Shown here: piece after piece, positions 1 to 40,282 of the stretch
How the letters are laid out: every line of letters begins with the position of its first letter
Position numbering within the stretch: the first letter of the stretch is position 1
Sequence record: MT465573
Direction: 5' to 3' (one strand)
DNA from: Escherichia phage P1723
Length of the DNA: 40,282 bases
Program-made: the position numbers and the translations under genes
Notes under the pieces: generated by a model
The model's input: only the letters and a program-made list of their open reading frames with translations
Database searches by the model: none
What the model was told of the DNA's origin: nothing

Positions 1-301
1 TCTGTTGGACATCATAAGGTCATCACTCAATGTCACCTCAGGTCATCACCTTTGGTCGGTGCCCGTCCTTTGGTTTACTCTCAGTAGCGCTGTGACGCTT
101 ATCAGAGACCGTCAGTCTCATGGCTTATGGTTTGCTATCAGTTTATCAGAGAGGTGATTAGCTAGGCTCTCAGGGCTTATTGGTCGCATCTTTTGATGTG
201 ATGCTGGTGCTACTGGTCAGATTGTTAAAGAGCGGTCTATCTGTGGTACGCTTATAAGGTAACTTAAAGAGACCTACGAGTCAATAGCTATTATCACGGC
301 C

Positions 302-529: not shown

Positions 530-565
530 TTGACATGCAGAACGACCTGATGTAACTTAGATAGC
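530..565 (+). promoter_or_regulatory. Early host-RNAP promoter (A-type): TTGACA-N17-TAACTT
   Basis: TTGACA 530-535, 17-nt spacer, TAACTT 553-558; one of three near-identical copies. Confidence 0.6.
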
Positions 566-736
566 AAGCAGTAAGGGTCGCTACTGGCTCCCACAGTAGC
601 AGTCAGGAAGGGAACTAAATCCCAACAGCCGACGACTCGGCGGTTAGCATAGCGTACCATCTGAGGGTGGAAACAATATGAGATGCACGAGTCGCTTCCT
701 AAGGAGCTAATCTTACAGGGCAGGTAAACAAGCTGC

Positions 737-8397: not shown

Positions 8398-8583
8398 ATG
8401 AAAGTATTACTGTTCATCTTCATGGCCTCTATAGGTCCCGGTAGTTCAAGCCCATCCGTGGAGGCTATCGCTATGCCAAGCATTCAGGCATGTAACTCGG
8501 CAGTGTCACAGCTCAAAGACGCCAAGAAGCCGGGTCGTGGTTATACCGACTACGAGTACGTCTGCGTCGAGACTTCTTATTAA
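8398..8583 (+). CDS. Hypothetical small protein, possible signal peptide (61 aa; 1.4 position)
   Basis: ATG ORF; N-terminus MKVLLFIFMASIGPGSSSP is signal-like; stop overlaps the next phage promoter. Confidence 0.45.
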   Translation: MKVLLFIFMASIGPGSSSPSVEAIAMPSIQACNSAVSQLKDAKKPGRGYTDYEYVCVETSY

Positions 8584-9769: not shown

Positions 9770-10474
9770 ATGTCATTCAATCGTAAAGCAATCCTGACTA
9801 CCGCTCTGGGTATTTGTGAACCGTATGCGTACCTGACCAAGCCTGACTATGGCAACGAAGAGCGTGGCTTCGGTAACCCTCGTGGTGTCTATAAGGTCAA
9901 CCTGACCATCGACAACAAGAACCCGCGCTGTCAGTCCATGATTGACGAAATCGTTAAGGCGCACGAAGAGCACTTCGCTCAGCGCAAGGCAGAGTACGAA
10001 GAGAACCCACCTCAGGTACAGCGCGGTAAGAAACCACTGCTGCCGTATGAGGGTGACCTACCGTTCATCGACAACGGTGACGGTACGACTACCTTTAAGT
10101 TCTCCTGCTATGCGTCCTATCAAGACAAGAAGACAAAAGAGACCAAGGCCATTAACGTGACCATCGTGGACTCAAAAGGTAAACGCATCGAAGACCTGCC
10201 AGCTTTCATTGGCGGTGGCTCTAAGCTGAAGCTGAAGTACAGCCTGATGCCTTACACTTGGAACCCTACCGTAGGTGCTTCCGTTAAGCTGCAACTGTCT
10301 AGCGTAATGCTGGTCGAGCTGGCTGCTGGTGGCGCTGGTGGTGGTGATGATTGGGGCGACGACACCGAGGAAGGTGGCTACGAAGCTCAGCAGTCGCAGG
10401 GTCAACGTGATGAGCAGTCTTGGCAGCAGGGCGATGAGTCCGATGGCGAAGCTGATTCTGACGACGACTTCTAA
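9770..10474 (+). CDS. 2.5: Single-stranded DNA-binding protein, gene 2.5
   Basis: 234 aa; EPYAY..KPDYGNEERGFGNPRGVYKV...DGTTTFKF..YASYQDKKTKETK...acidic C-terminus ending DDDF, as T7 gp2.5. Confidence 0.95.
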   Translation: MSFNRKAILTTALGICEPYAYLTKPDYGNEERGFGNPRGVYKVNLTIDNKNPRCQSMIDEIVKAHEEHFAQRKAEYEENPPQVQRGKKPLLPYEGDLPFIDNGDGTTTFKFSCYASYQDKKTKETKAINVTIVDSKGKRIEDLPAFIGGGSKLKLKYSLMPYTWNPTVGASVKLQLSSVMLVELAAGGAGGGDDWGDDTEEGGYEAQQSQGQRDEQSWQQGDESDGEADSDDDF

Positions 10475-10948
10475 ATGACACTCAAGGAGAAACTGGAGGC
10501 TTACTCTAAGGTTTCTCCGTCTGGATGCTGGGAGTGGCAACGCGGAAAGGCTGGTAACGGGTATGGGTCAATCTCTATCGGAAACCAAAAGTCTGCGTAT
10601 GCCCACCGAGTGGCGTACCAAGAGTTTATCGGACAGATACCCGATGGCTACGTGGTACGCCACAAATGTGATAATCCTAGCTGCTGCAACCCAGAGCACC
10701 TCGAAGTGGGGACTCAGGTTGATAACATGCAGGATTGTAAAAGGCGGGGCCGATTGGTTCCACCTCCAGTTCAACGCGGAGAAGCCAACAACAAGACTAA
10801 GCTGACCGGAGACCAAGTGTCTTACGTGTTGTCATCAACCAAGTCCAACCGAGAGTTAGCTCAAGAACTGGGCGTTACGCCACAAGCTATAGGCTGGAGG
10901 AGGAAACATGGCAAACCCATATGCAGGGAGTTACATAACGAAGCCTAA
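10475..10948 (+). CDS. HNH-family endonuclease (gene 2.8 position)
   Basis: 157 aa; AHRVAYQEF...GYVVRHKCDNPSCCNPEHLEVGTQVDN carries the His/Asn/His and Cys ligand pattern of HNH nucleases; overlaps gene 3 by 41 nt. Confidence 0.8.
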   Translation: MTLKEKLEAYSKVSPSGCWEWQRGKAGNGYGSISIGNQKSAYAHRVAYQEFIGQIPDGYVVRHKCDNPSCCNPEHLEVGTQVDNMQDCKRRGRLVPPPVQRGEANNKTKLTGDQVSYVLSSTKSNRELAQELGVTPQAIGWRRKHGKPICRELHNEA

Positions 10949-11357
10949 CGGGTTCCGTTCAGGTCTGGAAGATAAGGTGTCCAAGCAACTCGAATCTAAG
11001 AACGTTAAGTTCGAGTACGAGATGTGGAAGATACCTTATGTAATCCCGGCAAGTAATCATTTATACTGCCCCGACTTTTTGTTACCCAATGGTATCTTTG
11101 TTGAGACCAAGGGTTTATGGGAAGCGGCAGATCGTAAGAAACATCTATTGATTCGCGAGCAATACCCTGAACTGGATATTCGCCTCGTGTTCTCAAGTTC
11201 ACGCACCAAGATTTACAAAGGGTCACCGACCAGTTACGCGGAATTTTGCGAGAAGCACAACATTCAGTTCGCTGACAAGTTGATTCCTGTAAGTTGGCTC
11301 AAGGAGCCTAAGCGTGAAGTACCATTCGACAAGCTCAAGGAGGGCAAAAAGAAATGA
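10908..11357 (+). CDS. 3: Endonuclease I (Holliday junction resolvase), gene 3
   Basis: 149 aa, nearly identical blocks to T7 gp3: FRSGLEDKVSKQLESK, PDFLLPNGIFVETKGLWE, HLLIREQ; GGAGG RBS. Confidence 0.95.
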   Translation: MANPYAGSYITKPNGFRSGLEDKVSKQLESKNVKFEYEMWKIPYVIPASNHLYCPDFLLPNGIFVETKGLWEAADRKKHLLIREQYPELDIRLVFSSSRTKIYKGSPTSYAEFCEKHNIQFADKLIPVSWLKEPKREVPFDKLKEGKKK

Positions 11358-11800
11358 GTGTTCAGTTTAAAACCCGTAGTTCCACGAAGACCCTTATTGT
11401 CCACTGTGCGGCAACTAAGCCAACCATGAATATTGGTCTGCGTGAAATCCGTCAGTGGCATAAAGAGCGTGGCTTTCTGGATGTTGGTTATCACTTCATC
11501 ATTCGACGCGATGGTACTATCGAGACTGGTCGTGACGTTAATCAGGTTGGTGCACATACGGTAGGTCAGAACGACTCATCCGTAGGTATCTGCTTGGTTG
11601 GTGGTGTGGATGATAAGATGCAGCCACAGGCAAACTTTACGCCTCAGCAGATGGCTACCCTGCGTAAACTTCTGGACGAACTGAAAGTTAAGTTCCCCGG
11701 TGTAGCCGTTAAGGGCCACCGTGACTTTGCTGCTAAGGCTTGTCCGAGTTTTGACGTGAAGCGTTGGCTTGACACAAACGAGCTGGTGACGGCTAAGTAA
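11354..11800 (+). CDS. 3.5: Lysozyme / N-acetylmuramoyl-L-alanine amidase (RNAP inhibitor), gene 3.5
   Basis: 148 aa; VHCAATKP..REIRQWHKE.G.LDVGYHFII.RDGT..GRD...GAH...N..S.GICLVGG, KACPSFD matches T7 lysozyme. Confidence 0.95.
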   Translation: MSVQFKTRSSTKTLIVHCAATKPTMNIGLREIRQWHKERGFLDVGYHFIIRRDGTIETGRDVNQVGAHTVGQNDSSVGICLVGGVDDKMQPQANFTPQQMATLRKLLDELKVKFPGVAVKGHRDFAAKACPSFDVKRWLDTNELVTAK

Positions 11801-30523: not shown

Positions 30524-33500
30524 ATGGCTAAATATGACAAAACTATCCCTAACCAATACGATGGACTGATTCGTCAAGCTGCCGATGCCAACGGGGTCTC
30601 TTATGACCTCCTTCGACACTTAACGTTCAATGAGTCCAGCTTTAACGCTAACGCTAAGTCACCTACAGGACCTAAGGGTATCATGCAGATGACTGCTGGT
30701 ACTGGTCGAGCTATGGGACTCAATGTCTTCAAAGAGGACAACCCGGCTGATGACCGTTACAACCCTGAGAAAGCAATCCCGGCTGCTGCTAAGTTGCTTG
30801 CTGGCTTCGTTAAGAAGTCTAATGGCGATGAGCTGCGAGCCGCCCTGATGTATAACGTTGGGGAGGGCCCGACAGGTATGCCACAGATTGAGGCCTACGA
30901 TAAGCAGGACTACGGTAGCATTGGTGATGAGGGTCGCCTGTACATCCGTAAACTGGTAGGTTCCGCTAAGTCCCTGCGCTCAGAAGCCATTGAGAAGTTC
31001 GGTGACTTCGCAAAGGGAATCTTTGAGGTCGAAGCCCCAGCCTCTAAGGTAACTCGTGGGGCTCCCGGTCCAGAGACTGCAAGCGTCAACATGGACACGT
31101 CTAACCTTAAGTATGACCAATTGAACGAACGTACTGCTGCCAATACGTGGGCAGTACAGAACGACCAGCCAGAGGAGAACTATAAGCCTCAGGGAGCTGA
31201 CAAAGGGTTATTCTATAAGACTGGTGACGTGGCTAAGGTTGAGGTACAGAACTCCGCTCTAGCTACGATGGCTGATGCAGCCCTTGGCGACAACGGGTAT
31301 GACGTTTGGTCTGCAACTATTACACCATCCAAGTGGAACAGCTACACGTTCACTCCTGATGATATCCAAAAGATTCGTGAGAGTGGTCTTCGTGCTGAGT
31401 ACGCTCAGTCTGTCCTTGGGTCCAACGCTGAGACTCTCGATGAGATGATTAAGCTGGCTAAGGAACGTCAGGACCGTCAGGACTCTGTAGCCGATGCTGG
31501 TATGGGTGCCCACCTCGTGGGTGCTCTCGCTGGTGCTGCTGTAGACCCTGTGAGCTACATCCCGATTGCTGGTGCTGCTTCCAAGGGTATCTCCCTAGGT
31601 CGTCGTATGGTGACTGTAGGTACTCAAGCTGGTGCTCTGAACGTAGCCTCTGAAGTTTTACGTGTGGGTGTTGGTGGTGGACATGCAGATTACATGATGG
31701 CGGCTGGTGGTGGCTTACTGTTCGGTGCTGGTCTGACTGGTGTGTTACATCGTGCCAACCCTCGTGAAGCTGAGAGCGTCCTTGCGGCAACAGCTCGCGC
31801 TGAGTCTCGTGATGCAGCCATGCGTGGCCTACCGGATAACTCTGCTGTGAGTACCGAGGGTCTGGACTTTAAGACCTCTCCGAATGGCTCTCAATATGCA
31901 ACCCTCGACAGTGGCGAAGTAGTCCTGCCGGATGGTCAAGTGCTGTCAACCAGTAACCCCCTGAACCCCAATAGTGCCTCTCAGTTTGCTTCGGTAGACC
32001 CTGAGGTGACTAAGGGCTCGATGGGTGTACGTATGGGTTCCATGACCGATATCTCCCTGCACCTGTCTCGTTCTGCCGACGATGAAGTCCGTGGTGTTGC
32101 CTATGACCTCCTGCGTTCCACTACAGGTTACGTTAAAGGCGGCTCTGGTAAGTCCGGTACGGTTGCCTCTGACGTGGCTGAGCGTCTGCACTACACCGAT
32201 ACGTCCGACCTAACGGCTATTGAGCAGTTCACACGTGATGCAATCAAAGACCCTGAGTGGACTATGGGTGCTAACCGTGGGGATGCTCTGGCACGTGAGA
32301 CCGTGGTGCGTCGTGCAGTGGAAGCACAGGAAGATGGTATTGGCGTCTCTAAGTTGACCAAGGGTGAATCCAAGCTGCGTGATGAAATCTTCCGGTTCAC
32401 CACCAGCAAGGAAGACGCTATGTCTAACCCTGCGATGTTCGGTAACCCTAAAGCAATCCCTGTGATGAACAAGACGAAACTTAGCGGCAAATACTTCCCG
32501 GTGGCTTATGTACCTGAGAAGGTGGCGGCATTCCGTAATGTCTTTGGGAACTCCGTTGAGGATGCTCAAGGTGCCATGCAGCGCCACTTCTTGGCTGACT
32601 ATGCGTCCAACCCTAACACGAAGTCTGTGGTAGACGAGATGGTAGCCGCTAAGAACGGTCTGGATAGCCCAGCCGCAGTTACACCTGAGATGGTTGAGAA
32701 GTGGGCCAACGACAAGGCTTTCGGTATCGTAAACGGTGAGTTCACTACCAACCTTGCACTGGACGATATCGCCTCTGCGTCCAACTCAATGAACCTCGGG
32801 AAGAATAACTTCCTTGAGAGCCGTCATGGGTTCAGTATGGGATTTAAGTCTCAACTGCCGGATGGTCAGATGTTCTCCCTGAACGACCTGCGTAGCTTTG
32901 ACGCTAACAAGCTGCTGCGTAACTATGCCCGTAGAACCAATGGTGACATTGCGATTCACTCAACGGGTCAGACTACTCAGGACTTACTGGATAAGATTAC
33001 CGCTATCCGTGAGCGAGCCAAGAGTGACCCTTCCGGTAAGCTGAAGCAGGACGCTAACGCCCTCGAAGATACCGTGAAGTTACTCACTGGTCGTGCTCGT
33101 CGTGACCCTAACGGCGCTGTGGACATGGCTATGGGTGTTCTTAAAGACCTGAGCTTTGTCGCTAAGAACGCCTACATGGGTCTTCTGAACCTGACGGAGA
33201 TTGGTGGTATGATTGCCAAGGGTAACGTTCGTGCTCTGTTCCACGGTATTCCTGTTGTTCGTGACATGATGCGTTCCACCAAGGCTGTCTCCGGGACTGA
33301 CCTTCAGAAGCTGGAGTATGGCCTGATGGGTCGTGAAGTGGACAATATGATTCGCCCTCAACGGGCAGACCTCATTCAGTCTCTTCGTGACAACTCTGGT
33401 ATGGGTTCATTCGGTGCAAACGCTCTGGGTTCCCTTAAGTTCGGGACTCAGGAGATTGCCGCTGCGTGGCCTATGAGTAAGCTGCTACAAGGCACCACGA

Positions 33501-34486
33501 ACTACCTGCTTAGCGCTGCACGTCAGGGTCTCATTGGGAACCTTATTGAACACGCTGCGACGGGTAAGTCCTCCAAGTGGCTCAATGAGAACTTCCTGAA
33601 GTCTGCCAGCATCACGCCTGAGCAGTCCAAGGGTATCATTCAGTTCCTCAAAGACCACGCCAAGGTGGACGCTAACGGTAAGTGGACCTTCCCAGACCAA
33701 CACGCGATGAGCCTTGACCCTCGGGCTATGGACTTGTGGCGGATGGCTGATAAGGTTGCAGATGAGACCATGCTCCGACCATCCAAGATTAATGCACAGA
33801 ACGTTAAACAGTTAGGCCCGATTGTTGGCGCTGCGTTGCAGTTCAAAACGTTCGTCATTAAGTCCCTCAATGGTAAGACACTACGTACTTACTATCAGGC
33901 CACTCGCGATGGTCGTGCGATGGACGCTGCATTGTCCACAGGTATCTCCGGGATGCTTGCTGGTTCGTTCTACGTGATGCAGTCCCACATGAAAGCTGCT
34001 GGTCTCCCTGAGAACCAACGTGAGGCTTATCTCTTCAAGGCCTTAACGCCTGAGATGGTTGCCTACGCTGCGGCCTCCCGAAGCTCTATCACTGGTGCGC
34101 CGTTAGGTGTTGCAGATATGCTTCTGGGGCCAATTGGACTGACTCCAAGCCAGTACATGCGTACCACTATCAGTCCTAAGGATGCACCACAGCGAGACCC
34201 TAACAAGGCTTCCTCTGGTCGTTCCGGTACGGCTGAGCTGATGGGTGCTATTGGTCAACAGTTCCCTGTGGCTAACTACGTTGGCTCTACGGTGTCTCTC
34301 GGTCAGAACCTCTGGAACCTCGGAGGTGCCAATGGCCCTCGCGACTCCACGGAGTTCACTACAGGTGTCTATCAGAATATGAAGGAAGTTCTCCCGAACG
34401 ACCCGATTACTCAGAGACTACTTCTGGGTGCTTTCGAAGAGCACATCTACACAACCGAGCGACCTAAGCGTTCAGAGCGCTGGTAA
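30524..34486 (+). CDS. 16: Internal virion protein D with N-terminal lytic transglycosylase domain, gene 16
   Basis: 1320 aa; N-terminus GVSYDLLR...ES.FN..AKS.TGP.G.MQ.T is the transglycosylase motif region of T7 gp16; later segments (FGNPKAI, ILTGRARR, MDLWR.ADKVADE.MLRP) align with T7 gp16. Confidence 0.95.
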   Translation: MAKYDKTIPNQYDGLIRQAADANGVSYDLLRHLTFNESSFNANAKSPTGPKGIMQMTAGTGRAMGLNVFKEDNPADDRYNPEKAIPAAAKLLAGFVKKSNGDELRAALMYNVGEGPTGMPQIEAYDKQDYGSIGDEGRLYIRKLVGSAKSLRSEAIEKFGDFAKGIFEVEAPASKVTRGAPGPETASVNMDTSNLKYDQLNERTAANTWAVQNDQPEENYKPQGADKGLFYKTGDVAKVEVQNSALATMADAALGDNGYDVWSATITPSKWNSYTFTPDDIQKIRESGLRAEYAQSVLGSNAETLDEMIKLAKERQDRQDSVADAGMGAHLVGALAGAAVDPVSYIPIAGAASKGISLGRRMVTVGTQAGALNVASEVLRVGVGGGHADYMMAAGGGLLFGAGLTGVLHRANPREAESVLAATARAESRDAAMRGLPDNSAVSTEGLDFKTSPNGSQYATLDSGEVVLPDGQVLSTSNPLNPNSASQFASVDPEVTKGSMGVRMGSMTDISLHLSRSADDEVRGVAYDLLRSTTGYVKGGSGKSGTVASDVAERLHYTDTSDLTAIEQFTRDAIKDPEWTMGANRGDALARETVVRRAVEAQEDGIGVSKLTKGESKLRDEIFRFTTSKEDAMSNPAMFGNPKAIPVMNKTKLSGKYFPVAYVPEKVAAFRNVFGNSVEDAQGAMQRHFLADYASNPNTKSVVDEMVAAKNGLDSPAAVTPEMVEKWANDKAFGIVNGEFTTNLALDDIASASNSMNLGKNNFLESRHGFSMGFKSQLPDGQMFSLNDLRSFDANKLLRNYARRTNGDIAIHSTGQTTQDLLDKITAIRERAKSDPSGKLKQDANALEDTVKLLTGRARRDPNGAVDMAMGVLKDLSFVAKNAYMGLLNLTEIGGMIAKGNVRALFHGIPVVRDMMRSTKAVSGTDLQKLEYGLMGREVDNMIRPQRADLIQSLRDNSGMGSFGANALGSLKFGTQEIAAAWPMSKLLQGTTNYLLSAARQGLIGNLIEHAATGKSSKWLNENFLKSASITPEQSKGIIQFLKDHAKVDANGKWTFPDQHAMSLDPRAMDLWRMADKVADETMLRPSKINAQNVKQLGPIVGAALQFKTFVIKSLNGKTLRTYYQATRDGRAMDAALSTGISGMLAGSFYVMQSHMKAAGLPENQREAYLFKALTPEMVAYAAASRSSITGAPLGVADMLLGPIGLTPSQYMRTTISPKDAPQRDPNKASSGRSGTAELMGAIGQQFPVANYVGSTVSLGQNLWNLGGANGPRDSTEFTTGVYQNMKEVLPNDPITQRLLLGAFEEHIYTTERPKRSERW

Positions 34487-34487
34487 T

Positions 34488-34510
34488 CATTAACCCACAC
34501 TATAGGGAGA
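34488..34510 (+). promoter_or_regulatory. Phage RNAP promoter (phi17-like), copy 1
   Basis: TCATTAACCCACACTATAGGGAGAGG, +1 at 34505. Confidence 0.8.
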
Positions 34511-34550
34511 GGCAATCACGTCCTCCCTCTAGTTTTCATAAGGAGGCCAC

Positions 34551-34793
34551 ATGGCAAACGTCATTAAGACAGTTTATACGTACCCATTAGATGGCACCAC
34601 GACTGACTTTGCGATTCCCTTTGAGTACCTGTCACGTAAGTTCGTGGTGGTAACGCTCATTGGTCAAGACCGTAAAGAGCTGGTTGTTGTGACCGATTAT
34701 CGCTTCGCTACCCGCAACCTTATCTCTACGACTAAGGCATGGGGACCAGCCGATAACTATCAACAGATTGAGCTACACAACCGAGCGACCTAA
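34551..34793 (+). CDS. Truncated duplicate of the tail fiber N-terminus (gp17 residues 1-74 plus 6 aa), created by the tandem duplication
   Basis: Identical to the first 74 codons of gene 17, then runs through the duplication junction into LHNRAT and a TAA; has its own promoter and AAGGAGG RBS. Confidence 0.6.
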   Translation: MANVIKTVYTYPLDGTTTDFAIPFEYLSRKFVVVTLIGQDRKELVVVTDYRFATRNLISTTKAWGPADNYQQIELHNRAT

Positions 34794-34813
34794 GCGTTCA
34801 GAGCGCTGGTAAT

Positions 34814-34836
34814 CATTAACCCACACTATAGGGAGA
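34814..34836 (+). promoter_or_regulatory. Phage RNAP promoter (phi17-like), copy 2
   Basis: Identical to copy 1; +1 at 34831. Confidence 0.8.
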
Positions 34837-34876
34837 GGCAATCACGTCCTCCCTCTAGTTTTCATAAGGAGGCCAC

Positions 34877-36754
34877 ATGGCAAACGTCATTAAGACAGTT
34901 TATACGTACCCATTAGATGGCACCACGACTGACTTTGCGATTCCCTTTGAGTACCTGTCACGTAAGTTCGTGGTGGTAACGCTCATTGGTCAAGACCGTA
35001 AAGAGCTGGTTGTTGTGACCGATTATCGCTTCGCTACCCGCAACCTTATCTCTACGACTAAGGCATGGGGACCAGCCGATAACTATCAACAGATTGAGAT
35101 TCGTCGATACACTTCTGCAAGTGAACGTCTGGTTGACTTCAGTGATGGTTCCATCCTGCGAGCTACCGACCTTAACGTATCTCAGATTCAGACCCTGCAC
35201 GTTGCTGAAGAAGCGCGAGACCTGACCGCTGATACCATTGGCGTTAACAACGATGGCAACCTTGATGGTCGTGGTCGTCGTATCGTTAACGTGGCAGATG
35301 GTGTGGACGCTGGTGACGTTGTTACCGTAGGCCAGATGAACCGTTGGTCTGGTAGTGCTGCCGACAGCGCCAATAAAGCCAAGGTGTCCGAGACCAACGC
35401 CAAGACCTCTGAGACAAACTCAAAGGCTTCCGAGCTGTTAGCCCAGAAGTGGGCTGAGAACCCTAAAGGAACACCTGTGGTCTCCAGTCAGTATTCCGCT
35501 AAGCATTGGGCGTTGACCTCTGAGGATAGCGCTAATGCGTCTGCAACCTCTGCGGGTAACTCTCAGGCACAAGTAGCGAACGCTAAGACACAGGCTGACC
35601 GTGCTGGTGGTTACGCCAATGACGCTATGGGTTACCGCGATGCAGCCAACACGTCTGCTCAACAGGCCGCTGTATCTGAGGGCAACGCTGCGACATCTGC
35701 AAGTAACGCAAAGACTGAATCCGATAAGCTAATTCAGTTTAACACTCTGGTTGACCGGATTAACGGAGTGGCTGTACGTCAGGTTGGTGAGTTTGAGGTC
35801 CACAACTCTCGTACTTACGCTAAGCCGGGTACAGTGTATGGGGATGGTCAACTGCTGAACCGCAACCAGTTCCCTGCACTAGTAGCTGAGTTACTGGCAG
35901 GACACCTCCCGGTTGTCTCTGACTCCGAATGGCTGGCTGACCCCGGTAAACGTGGTTGCTATACCCTAGGTAACGGTACGACCACTTTCCGTGTACCAGA
36001 CCTCAACGGTGTCTATGCGGGTTCCATTAAGGCTCCTGTGTTCCGTGGTGACGCTGGGTTTACTGTAGGTGATGTTCAGAAGTCAGCTCTACCAAACATT
36101 GAGGGTCTGATTGCACTTGCCGATAATGAGCTGGCCTCCAGTGCCTCTGGTGCATTCTACAACGCTGGGCGCTCCAACAAAGGTGCAACTAACGATACCG
36201 GCGGTGCTCAGTTAGGTTTCGACGCGTCACTGTGGAACGAAATCTACAAGAAGGACACCAACGAAGCCCGAATGAACTCCGTGGTAATCGTATGGGTCAT
36301 CCGTACTCACGGGGTGGTGAACAATCCGGGTTCTGTAGATGCCGCTGTGTTGTCTTCTCGTGTCGAGCAGGTTTATACCGAACTGCTTACACGTATGGTT
36401 GCTAATGAGAACCTCCAGAAGTCTGGACAGAAGTTCCTTCGCCGAGTGTTTAGCGACCGCACGTCTCAGGGGCAACTTTCGACTGGAAGAACAGTGACTT
36501 GCTCTGAGGATATTCTCAACAAGATGCTAGTAATTGGCGCACACACCGATAGCCAAAACCCAAACTCTCAGATATATCGTTGTAGCCCGTTCCTCCAGCC
36601 GAACACTGCTGACCGAATGCACCTCACTCTATCTAACTGGTCGTACACCTTAGAGTTCCCTGCGGCGAATCAAGTTAAACTAGTAGCGGCTACAGGTTCT
36701 GGAGTACAGGCAATCAACTATATTGACGTAGTGTGCGACTACCCACAAACGTAA
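34877..36754 (+). CDS. 17: Tail fiber protein, gene 17 (T7-like N-terminal domain, divergent distal region)
   Basis: 625 aa; residues 1-150 (MANVIKTV..FEYL.RKFVVVTLIG.DRK...DYRFATR...KAWGPAD, GSILRA.DLNV.QIQT.HVAEEARDLT.DTIGVNNDG.LD.RGRRIVN) match T7 gp17; distal part differs and contains a tail-collar-like motif. Confidence 0.95.
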   Translation: MANVIKTVYTYPLDGTTTDFAIPFEYLSRKFVVVTLIGQDRKELVVVTDYRFATRNLISTTKAWGPADNYQQIEIRRYTSASERLVDFSDGSILRATDLNVSQIQTLHVAEEARDLTADTIGVNNDGNLDGRGRRIVNVADGVDAGDVVTVGQMNRWSGSAADSANKAKVSETNAKTSETNSKASELLAQKWAENPKGTPVVSSQYSAKHWALTSEDSANASATSAGNSQAQVANAKTQADRAGGYANDAMGYRDAANTSAQQAAVSEGNAATSASNAKTESDKLIQFNTLVDRINGVAVRQVGEFEVHNSRTYAKPGTVYGDGQLLNRNQFPALVAELLAGHLPVVSDSEWLADPGKRGCYTLGNGTTTFRVPDLNGVYAGSIKAPVFRGDAGFTVGDVQKSALPNIEGLIALADNELASSASGAFYNAGRSNKGATNDTGGAQLGFDASLWNEIYKKDTNEARMNSVVIVWVIRTHGVVNNPGSVDAAVLSSRVEQVYTELLTRMVANENLQKSGQKFLRRVFSDRTSQGQLSTGRTVTCSEDILNKMLVIGAHTDSQNPNSQIYRCSPFLQPNTADRMHLTLSNWSYTLEFPAANQVKLVAATGSGVQAINYIDVVCDYPQT

Positions 36755-40092: not shown

Positions 40093-40282
40093 TCTCAAAG
40101 ATACAACTCCCAAAGTTCCCCCATAGCCCTCTTTAAGTTCACCTTCGGTGGCCCTTCCCCTTTGGTTACTCTTTAAGTGACACCTTTGGTGGTTCGTTTG
40201 GTTCTCCTGAGGCGGTGTTGAGACCCTTTGGTGAGACATTAGGGAGACCATTTGGTGACATTTGGTTATGCCTCAGTCCCTA
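40093..40282. repeat. Putative terminal-repeat / genome-end region with CCTTTGGT-type short repeats
   Basis: TCTCAAAGATACAACTCCCAAAGTTCCCCCATAGCCCTCTTTAAG resembles the T3/T7 left-end sequence; CCTTTGGT/CCCTTTAAG repeats continue across the window end into positions 1-80. Confidence 0.35.

What the first reader, a model, noticed from the sequence alone, without database searches (positions are those of the whole stretch)
34551..34793. Independently expressed tail-fiber N-terminal fragment ORF created by the duplication
The upstream copy yields an 80-aa ORF: gp17 residues 1-74 followed by LHNRAT and a stop, with its own promoter and strong RBS. In T7 the gp17 N-terminal domain docks the fiber to the tail (gp11/gp12), so a free fragment could compete with full-length fibers or modulate fiber occupancy. 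The doubled promoter could alternatively just raise gene 17 transcription.
Basis: partly seen in the sequence, partly recalled or inferred. Interest (0 to 1): 0.6.

Follow-up and report, generated by a model that had tools for sequence, protein, structure and literature searches.

The report
Duplicated tail-fibre gene start, probably artefact
The deposited genome of the T7-like coliphage P1723 carries a perfect 326-base head-to-tail repeat that creates a second promoter and an 80-residue stub of the tail-fibre protein, but the repeat is unique to this one record and is more likely an assembly error or a very recent accident than an evolved gene.

Summary
Positions 34447-34772 and 34773-35098 are a 100% identical 326-bp tandem repeat. 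Each copy holds the last 40 nt of gene 16, a perfect phage-RNAP promoter, an AAGGAGG ribosome-binding site and the first 222 nt of gene 17. The upstream copy gives an 80-aa ORF: gp17 residues 1-74 plus LHNRAT.

The window is Escherichia phage P1723, and GenBank already annotates the ORF (QKM75971.1). The two closest relatives, SRT7 and a Logan contig (97-99% identity), have one copy. The junction occurs in no other public collection searched.

The copies have not diverged and there is no junction microhomology. The repeat brackets a promoter, the only kind of dispersed exact repeat in this genome. The record looks like a collapsed short-read assembly, with one terminal repeat and an opening 1 nt past it. 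Spurious repeats are documented in short-read assemblies of T7-like phages.

I put an assembly or finishing artefact at about 0.55 and a real, recent duplication at about 0.38. A real duplication would mainly double the gene 17 promoter, which has a T7 precedent.

The stub lacks 17 of 22 invariant adapter-domain positions and the whole trimerising shaft, so a competing or decoy role is unsupported. Read mapping or PCR across the junction would settle it. Interest is low.

The parts
30524..34486 (+). Gene 16 (internal virion protein with transglycosylase domain, 1320 aa). It is intact; its last 40 nt, stop codon included, form the start of repeat copy 1.
   Evidence: ORF list; SRT7 annotation and Pfam SLT on the 1320-aa homologue.
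34447..34772 (+). Repeat copy 1 (326 bp): gene 16 tail, phi17 promoter, leader with ribosome-binding site, and gene 17 codons 1-74.
   Evidence: Exact period-326 match run; alignment with copy 2 and SRT7.
34773..35098 (+). Repeat copy 2 (326 bp), 100% identical to copy 1. Its first 40 nt are an orphan, non-coding copy of the gene 16 3' end. Its gene 17 start continues into the full-length gene.
34489..34510 (+). Phage RNA polymerase promoter, upstream copy (phi17a); +1 at 34505.
   Evidence: Exact match to the window's own 22-nt promoter consensus: 13 sites, all on the + strand, 0 expected.
34815..34836 (+). Phage RNA polymerase promoter, downstream copy (phi17b); +1 at 34831.
34540..34546 (+). 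Ribosome-binding site AAGGAGG of the 80-aa ORF. The identical site for gene 17 lies at 34866-34872.
   Evidence: Sequence read directly.
34551..34793 (+). 80-aa ORF: gp17 residues 1-74 plus LHNRAT and a stop. GenBank annotates it as QKM75971.1, 'non-contractile tail fiber protein'.
34772..34773 (.). Novel junction ...CAGATTGAG|CTACACAACC..., with zero microhomology.
   Evidence: The 30-mer spanning it is absent from IMG/VR, JGI metagenomes and GTDB genomes.
34877..36754 (+). Full-length gene 17 (tail fibre, 625 aa). PF03906 adapter domain covers residues 1-155.

Best explanation
The 80-aa ORF is an incidental by-product of a 326-bp exact repeat that most likely was introduced when the P1723 genome was assembled or finished. 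Two routes would do this. Two overlapping contig ends may have been joined end-to-end without merging the overlap. Or a gap-closing or re-orientation step may have failed at the spot where contigs break on the phi17 promoter, which is a dispersed repeat. On this reading the physical phage has one phi17 promoter and one gene 17 start, like its relatives, and no fragment is made.

Shown: the repeat is exact, private to this record, lacks microhomology, brackets a dispersed repeat, and sits in a record that is a collapsed circular-type assembly.

Inferred: that the join was made in silico rather than in the phage.
For: 1. The copies are 100% identical over 326 bp, and the matching run equals the period, so there is no junction microhomology.
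2. Both copies share the same two differences from SRT7, so the event postdates all divergence.
3. SRT7 (97-98% identity genome-wide) and an independent Logan contig (98-99%) have a single copy.
4. The junction 30-mer is absent from IMG/VR, JGI metagenomes and GTDB genomes. No other assembly encodes the 80-aa product.
5. Only 3 of 1075 phage records with a gp17 N-terminus have a second hit of any kind.
6. The record is not a physical genome. SRT7 has a perfect 175-bp terminal repeat at both ends, whereas the window has one copy and is opened 1 nt past it. The Logan contig runs straight from window 40282 to window 1.
7. With the repeat collapsed, the only exact repeats of 21 nt or more in the genome are the phage promoters, and the duplicated unit brackets one. 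That is where small-k contigs break.
8. In short-read-only assemblies of T7-like przondoviruses, spurious repeats were found in 7 of 10 phages and confirmed by Sanger sequencing as artefacts in most. Terminal repeats were deleted and contigs needed re-orienting (PMC10438801; see also PMC8785237).
9. An independent assembly of the relative ends its contig 51 nt from the repeat's left edge.
Against: - 326 bp is not a standard k-mer overlap; documented artefacts were about 79 bp and lay near the terminal repeat.
- The repeat leaves genes 16 and 17 intact and contains a promoter. That is what a viable, possibly selected, real duplication would look like.
- A 154-bp promoter-containing tandem duplication did reach consensus in an evolved T7 line.
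- The record opening exactly 1 nt after the terminal repeat could be the assembler's own break at a physical end. If so, no manual rotation took place, which removes one route to the artefact.
- No reads or assembly metadata could be examined.
Confidence: 0.55

Rival explanations
1. The repeat is a real, very recent tandem duplication in the P1723 stock, possibly only in part of the population. Its main effect would be a second class-III-type phi17 promoter in tandem, raising transcription of gene 17 and the downstream lysis and packaging genes. The 80-aa ORF would be transcribed and probably translated, but as an unselected truncated by-product. Such a repeat should be lost readily by homologous recombination unless selected (own knowledge of T7 recombination; not tested here).
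For: - Both breakpoints lie in different genes, so intact copies of genes 16 and 17 remain.
- The unit carries an exact-consensus promoter and ribosome-binding site.
- Direct precedent: a 154-bp tandem duplication including promoter phi13 reached 50% or more in evolved T7:LME_2000 and was judged regulatory (PMC3737178).
- 326 bp does not correspond to a usual assembler k-mer.
- T7-type packaging cuts at defined sites, so 326 extra bp are tolerable (own knowledge).
Against: - There is no microhomology at the junction.
- The repeat is absent from both close relatives and from every other public assembly searched.
- Zero divergence between copies means there is no evidence of persistence.
- Spurious repeats are frequent in short-read assemblies of this phage group.
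Confidence: 0.38
2. One reading: the duplication is real and is maintained because the free 80-aa gp17 N-terminal fragment docks at the gp11/gp12 fibre socket, or co-assembles with full-length gp17, and so tunes fibre occupancy or acts as a decoy.
For: - The ORF has the same promoter, leader and ribosome-binding site as gene 17, so it would be made in fibre-like amounts.
- The AlphaFold model of gp17 1-160 shows a confident beta-sandwich spanning residues 5-78 (pLDDT about 90). The fragment therefore retains most of one subdomain.
- That sandwich alone superposes on another tailspike N-terminus, 7rfv (rmsd 2.7 Å over 73 columns; a weak hit, E = 0.054).
Against: - The fragment is cut inside the last strand (70-78) of the sandwich.
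- It covers only PF03906 positions 1-69 of 157.
- It lacks 17 of 22 invariant positions, including R76, R77, T79 and S80, and the conserved 84-131 segment.
- It lacks the shaft that makes the fibre a trimer.
- Natural stand-alone adapter-type proteins found here (257-270 aa) all carry the whole domain.
- There is no conservation in any relative and no divergence between copies, so no sign of selection.
- A dominant-negative fibre fragment would be expected to be deleterious.
Confidence: 0.04

Closest known systems
T7 gp17 N-terminal tail-attachment (adapter) domain, Pfam PF03906; solved in 7BOZ, 7EY7, 7EY9, 8DSP and 8E4G
   Same: The first 74 residues of the ORF are the start of this domain, about 76% identical to T7 gp17.
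   Different: The domain is about 149 residues. The ORF stops halfway and lacks the most conserved segment and the trimeric shaft.
154-bp tandem duplication containing promoter phi13 in experimentally evolved T7:LME_2000 (Cecchi et al. 2013, PMC3737178)
   Same: A head-to-tail duplication of an intergenic region that doubles a phage-RNAP late promoter in a T7-type genome.
   Different: That one was seen in population sequencing under defined selection and lay in an intergenic region. This one extends 222 nt into gene 17, so it makes a truncated ORF, and it is known only from one deposited consensus sequence.
Spurious repeats in short-read-only assemblies of T7-like phages (Elek et al. 2023, PMC10438801) and internalised redundancies after re-orientation (Turner et al. 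2021, PMC8785237)
   Same: An exact repeat in a Studiervirinae record that has lost one terminal repeat and is a linearised circular-type assembly.
   Different: Documented cases were about 79 bp and close to or within the terminal-repeat region. This one is 326 bp and 5.3 kb from the terminal repeat.
Stand-alone short adapter or anchor fibre proteins of T7-like podophages (257-270 aa PF03906 proteins such as P0010, P0012, P0018 and P0020)
   Same: A separate small protein carrying gp17-like N-terminal sequence.
   Different: Those proteins contain the complete adapter domain plus a stalk and are stable genes. The 80-aa ORF is a half-domain and is identical to the neighbouring gene.

Membership tests
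PF03906 T7 gp17-like adapter domain | Significant match to the family profile | tested here: met
   68.9 bits against a cut-off of 25.2, E = 5e-19.
PF03906 T7 gp17-like adapter domain | Complete domain (about 149 aa, 157 profile positions) | tested here: not met
   Only profile positions 1-69 are matched. The AlphaFold model shows the cut inside strand 70-78.
PF03906 T7 gp17-like adapter domain | Conserved core residues of the domain present | tested here: not met
   17 of 22 invariant columns in a 17-sequence alignment lie beyond residue 74.
Stand-alone adapter fibre proteins | Conserved as a separate gene in related genomes | tested here: not met
   SRT7 and Logan contig L005 have no such ORF. 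The exact product is found in no other assembly.
Real promoter-doubling tandem duplication (T7:LME_2000 type) | Head-to-tail copies that each contain a consensus phage promoter | tested here: met
Real promoter-doubling tandem duplication (T7:LME_2000 type) | Junction supported by sequencing reads or PCR from the phage population | not testable with these tools
   No reads were accessible. No Logan assembly encodes the exact 625-aa fibre or the 80-aa ORF, so raw data are probably not public.
Assembly or finishing artefact (unmerged contig overlap, or a join at a repeat) | Copies identical, no microhomology, private to one record | tested here: met
Assembly or finishing artefact (unmerged contig overlap, or a join at a repeat) | Record shows independent signs of a collapsed or re-opened short-read assembly | tested here: met
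   The record has one terminal-repeat copy only and is opened 1 nt after its end. The relative SRT7 has a 175-bp repeat at both ends.
Assembly or finishing artefact (unmerged contig overlap, or a join at a repeat) | Repeat brackets a sequence that breaks contigs | tested here: met
   Promoters are the only exact repeats of 21 nt or more in the collapsed genome, and the unit contains one. An independent assembly ends 51 nt away.
Assembly or finishing artefact (unmerged contig overlap, or a join at a repeat) | 1x read depth over the unit and no junction-spanning reads | not testable with these tools
   No read data available.

The most novel reading that the evidence does not exclude
The duplication is physically real and is held in the P1723 population by selection. 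The reason would be that the free beta-sandwich subdomain (gp17 residues 1-74) binds the gp11/gp12 socket or nascent fibres and modulates how many fibres a virion carries. That would make it a newly born regulatory or decoy micro-protein caught at its moment of origin.
Probability: 0.04. Interest if true: 0.5.

Novelty: not a real feature. Interest (0 to 1): 0.15.

Why it matters
If the repeat is an artefact, the practical point is curation. P1723 is the exemplar of the ICTV species Foetvirus P1723. Its record would then carry a spurious 326 bp, a spurious 80-aa 'tail fiber protein' (QKM75971.1) that has reached UniRef, and only one terminal repeat.

If the repeat is real, it would be a natural-isolate counterpart of the promoter duplications seen in evolved T7. 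It would also be a clean example of how a tandem duplication makes a promoter-equipped truncated ORF. That would be a modest curiosity, but it would not change the understanding of fibre assembly unless the fragment proved active.

Tried and rejected
- **Junction in other public data.** I searched the junction 30-mer in IMG/VR, JGI metagenomes and GTDB genomes and found nothing. A second scan with the single-copy promoter-to-ATG sequence found only SRT7 in IMG/VR and nothing in the other two.
- **Exact-product look-ups.** Look-ups of the 80-aa ORF, the fibre, the holin, gp13, gp14, gp11 and the large terminase found nothing on record. Look-ups of gp18, the capsid protein and gp18.5 gave SRT7, one Logan relative and short fragments.
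- **Contigs I could not reach.** I could not fetch the other end of Logan contig L005.
- **Structure of the fragment.** A single-sequence AlphaFold run on the 80-aa ORF was uninformative (pLDDT 52).
- **RNA structure in the leader.** The leader fold is not unusual (z = -1.8), so I dropped the idea of a special RNA element.
- **Second terminal repeat or packaging site.** I rejected the idea that the repeat is one of these. It does not resemble the terminal repeat, which lies at about 40093-40281.
- **Ancient paralogy.** Rejected because the copies are identical and share derived differences from SRT7.
- **Literature.** I found no paper describing P1723.
- **Records with two hits.** I did not identify the 3 phage records with two gp17-N hits.

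Full report
**What is in the sequence.** Reading 34200-35400 and scanning for repeats shows an exact head-to-tail repeat of period 326. Copy 1 is 34447-34772 and copy 2 is 34773-35098. The run of positions where base i equals base i+326 is exactly 326 long. The copies are therefore 100% identical, and not one extra base is shared at either edge, so there is no junction microhomology.

Each unit contains four elements:
- the last 40 nt of gene 16, stop codon included (gene 16 is 30524-34486, 1320 aa);
- a 22-nt phage-RNA-polymerase promoter;
- a 46-nt leader with AAGGAGG 4 nt before the ATG;
- the first 222 nt of gene 17.

The upstream copy yields the ORF 34551-34793. This is gp17 residues 1-74, then LHNRAT and a stop, read out of frame from the duplicated gene 16 tail. 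Full-length gene 17 is 34877-36754 (625 aa).

The promoter sequence ATTAACCCACACTATAGGGAGA occurs 13 times with three or fewer mismatches, always on the + strand, against 0 expected. Both copies in the repeat are exact matches. It is the only long repeat in the window.

**What the window is.** The 80-aa product is in NCBI as QKM75971.1 and the 625-aa fibre as QKM75972.1. Both are named 'non-contractile tail fiber protein [Escherichia phage P1723]' and sit on a 40,282-bp contig. The window is therefore the deposited genome of P1723, exemplar of the species Foetvirus P1723 in Studiervirinae. Its own record is not in the searchable phage collection. I found no paper describing it.

**Relatives have one copy.**
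- The closest record, Escherichia phage SRT7 (39,883 bp), matches at 96-98% across the genome. It aligns to both copies with the same 326 bases, so 1601 query bases map to 1275 bases of SRT7.
- Both P1723 copies share the same two differences from SRT7. The event is therefore younger than all divergence seen.
- A look-up of the identical gp18 protein recovered an independent Logan assembly, SRR27322254 (39,501-bp contig, locus L005), at 98-99% identity. It also has one copy.
- The 30-mer across the junction is absent from IMG/VR, JGI metagenome contigs and GTDB genomes.
- No other assembly in the gene-position index encodes the 80-aa product.
- Among 1075 phage records with a gp17-like N-terminus there are 1078 hits, so a second copy of any kind is very rare.

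**Real or artefact?** The sequence alone cannot decide this, but several features bear on it.

Evidence for an artefact:
- The copies are perfectly identical, the junction has no microhomology, and the repeat is private to this record.
- The record is not a physical T7-type genome. SRT7 has a perfect 175-bp direct terminal repeat at both ends. The window has one copy, at its right end, and is opened one base after it (...CAGTCCCT|A, then TCTGTTGG...). The Logan contig reads straight through from window 40282 to window 1. This is the signature of a collapsed, circular-type short-read assembly.
- When the repeat is collapsed (39,956 bp), the only exact repeats of 21 nt or more anywhere in the genome are the phage promoters, at most 27 nt long. 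The duplicated unit brackets one of them. Promoters are where small-k contigs break and where unmerged joins or gap-closing errors arise.
- Elek et al. 2023 reported erroneous repeats in short-read-only assemblies of 7 of 10 T7-like przondoviruses. They confirmed most of these by Sanger sequencing. They also reported deleted terminal repeats and contigs linearised mid-genome that needed re-orienting (PMC10438801). The Phage Annotation Guide lists related problems (PMC8785237).
- The independent Logan contig ends at window 34396, only 51 nt from the repeat's left edge. This is either a coincidence of roughly 1-2% probability or a hint that assemblies tend to break here.

Evidence for a real duplication:
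- The breakpoints lie in two different genes, so genes 16 and 17 stay intact.
- The unit carries a promoter.
- 326 bp is not a usual k-mer overlap.
- A 154-bp tandem duplication containing promoter phi13 rose to consensus in an evolved T7 line and was considered regulatory (PMC3737178).
- The opening 1 nt after the terminal repeat could be the assembler's own break at a physical end (my inference). That would remove the 'rotation of an overlapping contig' route, though not the 'unmerged join' route.

Weighing these, I put an artefact at about 0.55 and a real recent duplication at about 0.38. From general knowledge of T7 recombination, not tested here, a 326-bp tandem repeat should be lost frequently unless selected.

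**Could the fragment do anything?** The fibre N-terminus is a clear T7 gp17 adapter domain:
- PF03906 covers residues 1-155 of the full protein.
- The sequence is about 76% identical to T7 gp17, solved in 7BOZ, 7EY7, 7EY9, 8DSP and 8E4G.
- The model matches those chains by Foldseek.
- The literature places this domain, the first roughly 149 residues, between the gp11 (gatekeeper) and gp12 (nozzle) rings.

The 80-aa ORF matches only profile positions 1-69 of 157. An AlphaFold model of residues 1-160 built on a 17-sequence alignment shows a confident beta-sandwich over residues 5-78, whose last strand is 70-78. A poorly defined segment and a helix at 96-118 follow. The fragment is cut at residue 74, inside that last strand. 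It keeps most of one subdomain but replaces IRRYTS with LHNRAT.

In the alignment, 17 of the 22 invariant positions lie beyond residue 74. These include R76, R77, T79, S80, R84 and the AEEAR motif. Mean column conservation is 0.62 for residues 1-74 and 0.78 for residues 75-135. The trimerising shaft is absent.

Short natural proteins with this domain do exist in T7-like contigs, at 257-270 aa, but they carry the whole domain. Competition with full-length fibres is therefore not excluded but has nothing in its favour. A dominant-negative fibre stub would be expected to be selected against. A single-sequence model of the fragment was uninformative.

**Verdict.** The functional interpretation is not supported. 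The best reading is that the ORF is an incidental product of a private, undiverged 326-bp repeat, probably introduced in silico. If the repeat is real, it is a very recent promoter-doubling duplication of a kind already seen in T7. Either way it is not an evolved, independently maintained gene.

The deciding experiments are simple: read depth and junction reads, a PCR across 34350-35200, or one long read. Interest is low, at 0.15. The residual novel reading, a newborn fibre-modulating micro-protein, has about 4% probability.

Noticed in passing
window 1-20 and 40093-40282: The record carries only one copy of the direct terminal repeat, at the right end, and is opened exactly 1 nt after it (...CAGTCCCT|A / TCTGTTGG...). 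SRT7 has a perfect 175-bp repeat at both ends. The P1723 record is therefore a unit-length, circular-type assembly and lacks its left terminal repeat.
   Followed up: yes
L005 position 1 (= window 34396): The independent Logan contig SRR27322254_28075 of a 98-99% identical phage ends 51 nt upstream of the repeat's left edge and 93 nt upstream of the phi17 promoter. This is either coincidence (about 1-2%) or a sign that the locus is prone to contig breaks or heterogeneity. The other end of the contig could not be fetched.
   Followed up: partly
window 34877-36754 compared with L004:7903-9738, L005:156-2057 and P0004: The tail fibre is mosaic among close relatives. The N-terminal part is identical or nearly so in P1723, SRT7 (to about residue 500) and the Logan phage (to about residue 280). 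The C-terminal receptor-binding parts diverge sharply. A 422-aa fibre (P0004) shares its first roughly 105 residues with P1723's. This is classic host-range module swapping downstream of the adapter domain.
   Followed up: partly
window 10474-11387, and 8401-8578 and 570-737: Islands that are unaligned or only 82% identical to SRT7, in an otherwise 96-98% identical genome. They lie in the region of the endonuclease and amidase genes and in the early region, and suggest local recombinational replacement.
   Followed up: no
window 530-568 and 737-775: Two 39-nt copies, 85% identical and 207 nt apart, both starting TTGACAT. They probably belong to the tandem early host-RNAP promoters, as with T7 A1-A3.
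   Followed up: no
L002 (SRT7 NC_048002) 33349-35997: The SRT7 RefSeq record is deposited in reverse-complement orientation relative to T7 convention. It annotates its T7-type single-subunit RNA polymerase twice, as overlapping CDSs, one of them labelled 'N4-like RNA polymerase'. This looks like an annotation problem.
   Followed up: no
proteins P0010, P0012, P0018 and P0020: Short 257-270-aa proteins that consist of a complete gp17-like adapter domain plus a short stalk occur on roughly 38-39-kb T7-like contigs. They are probably separate anchor proteins for exchangeable tailspikes.
   Followed up: no
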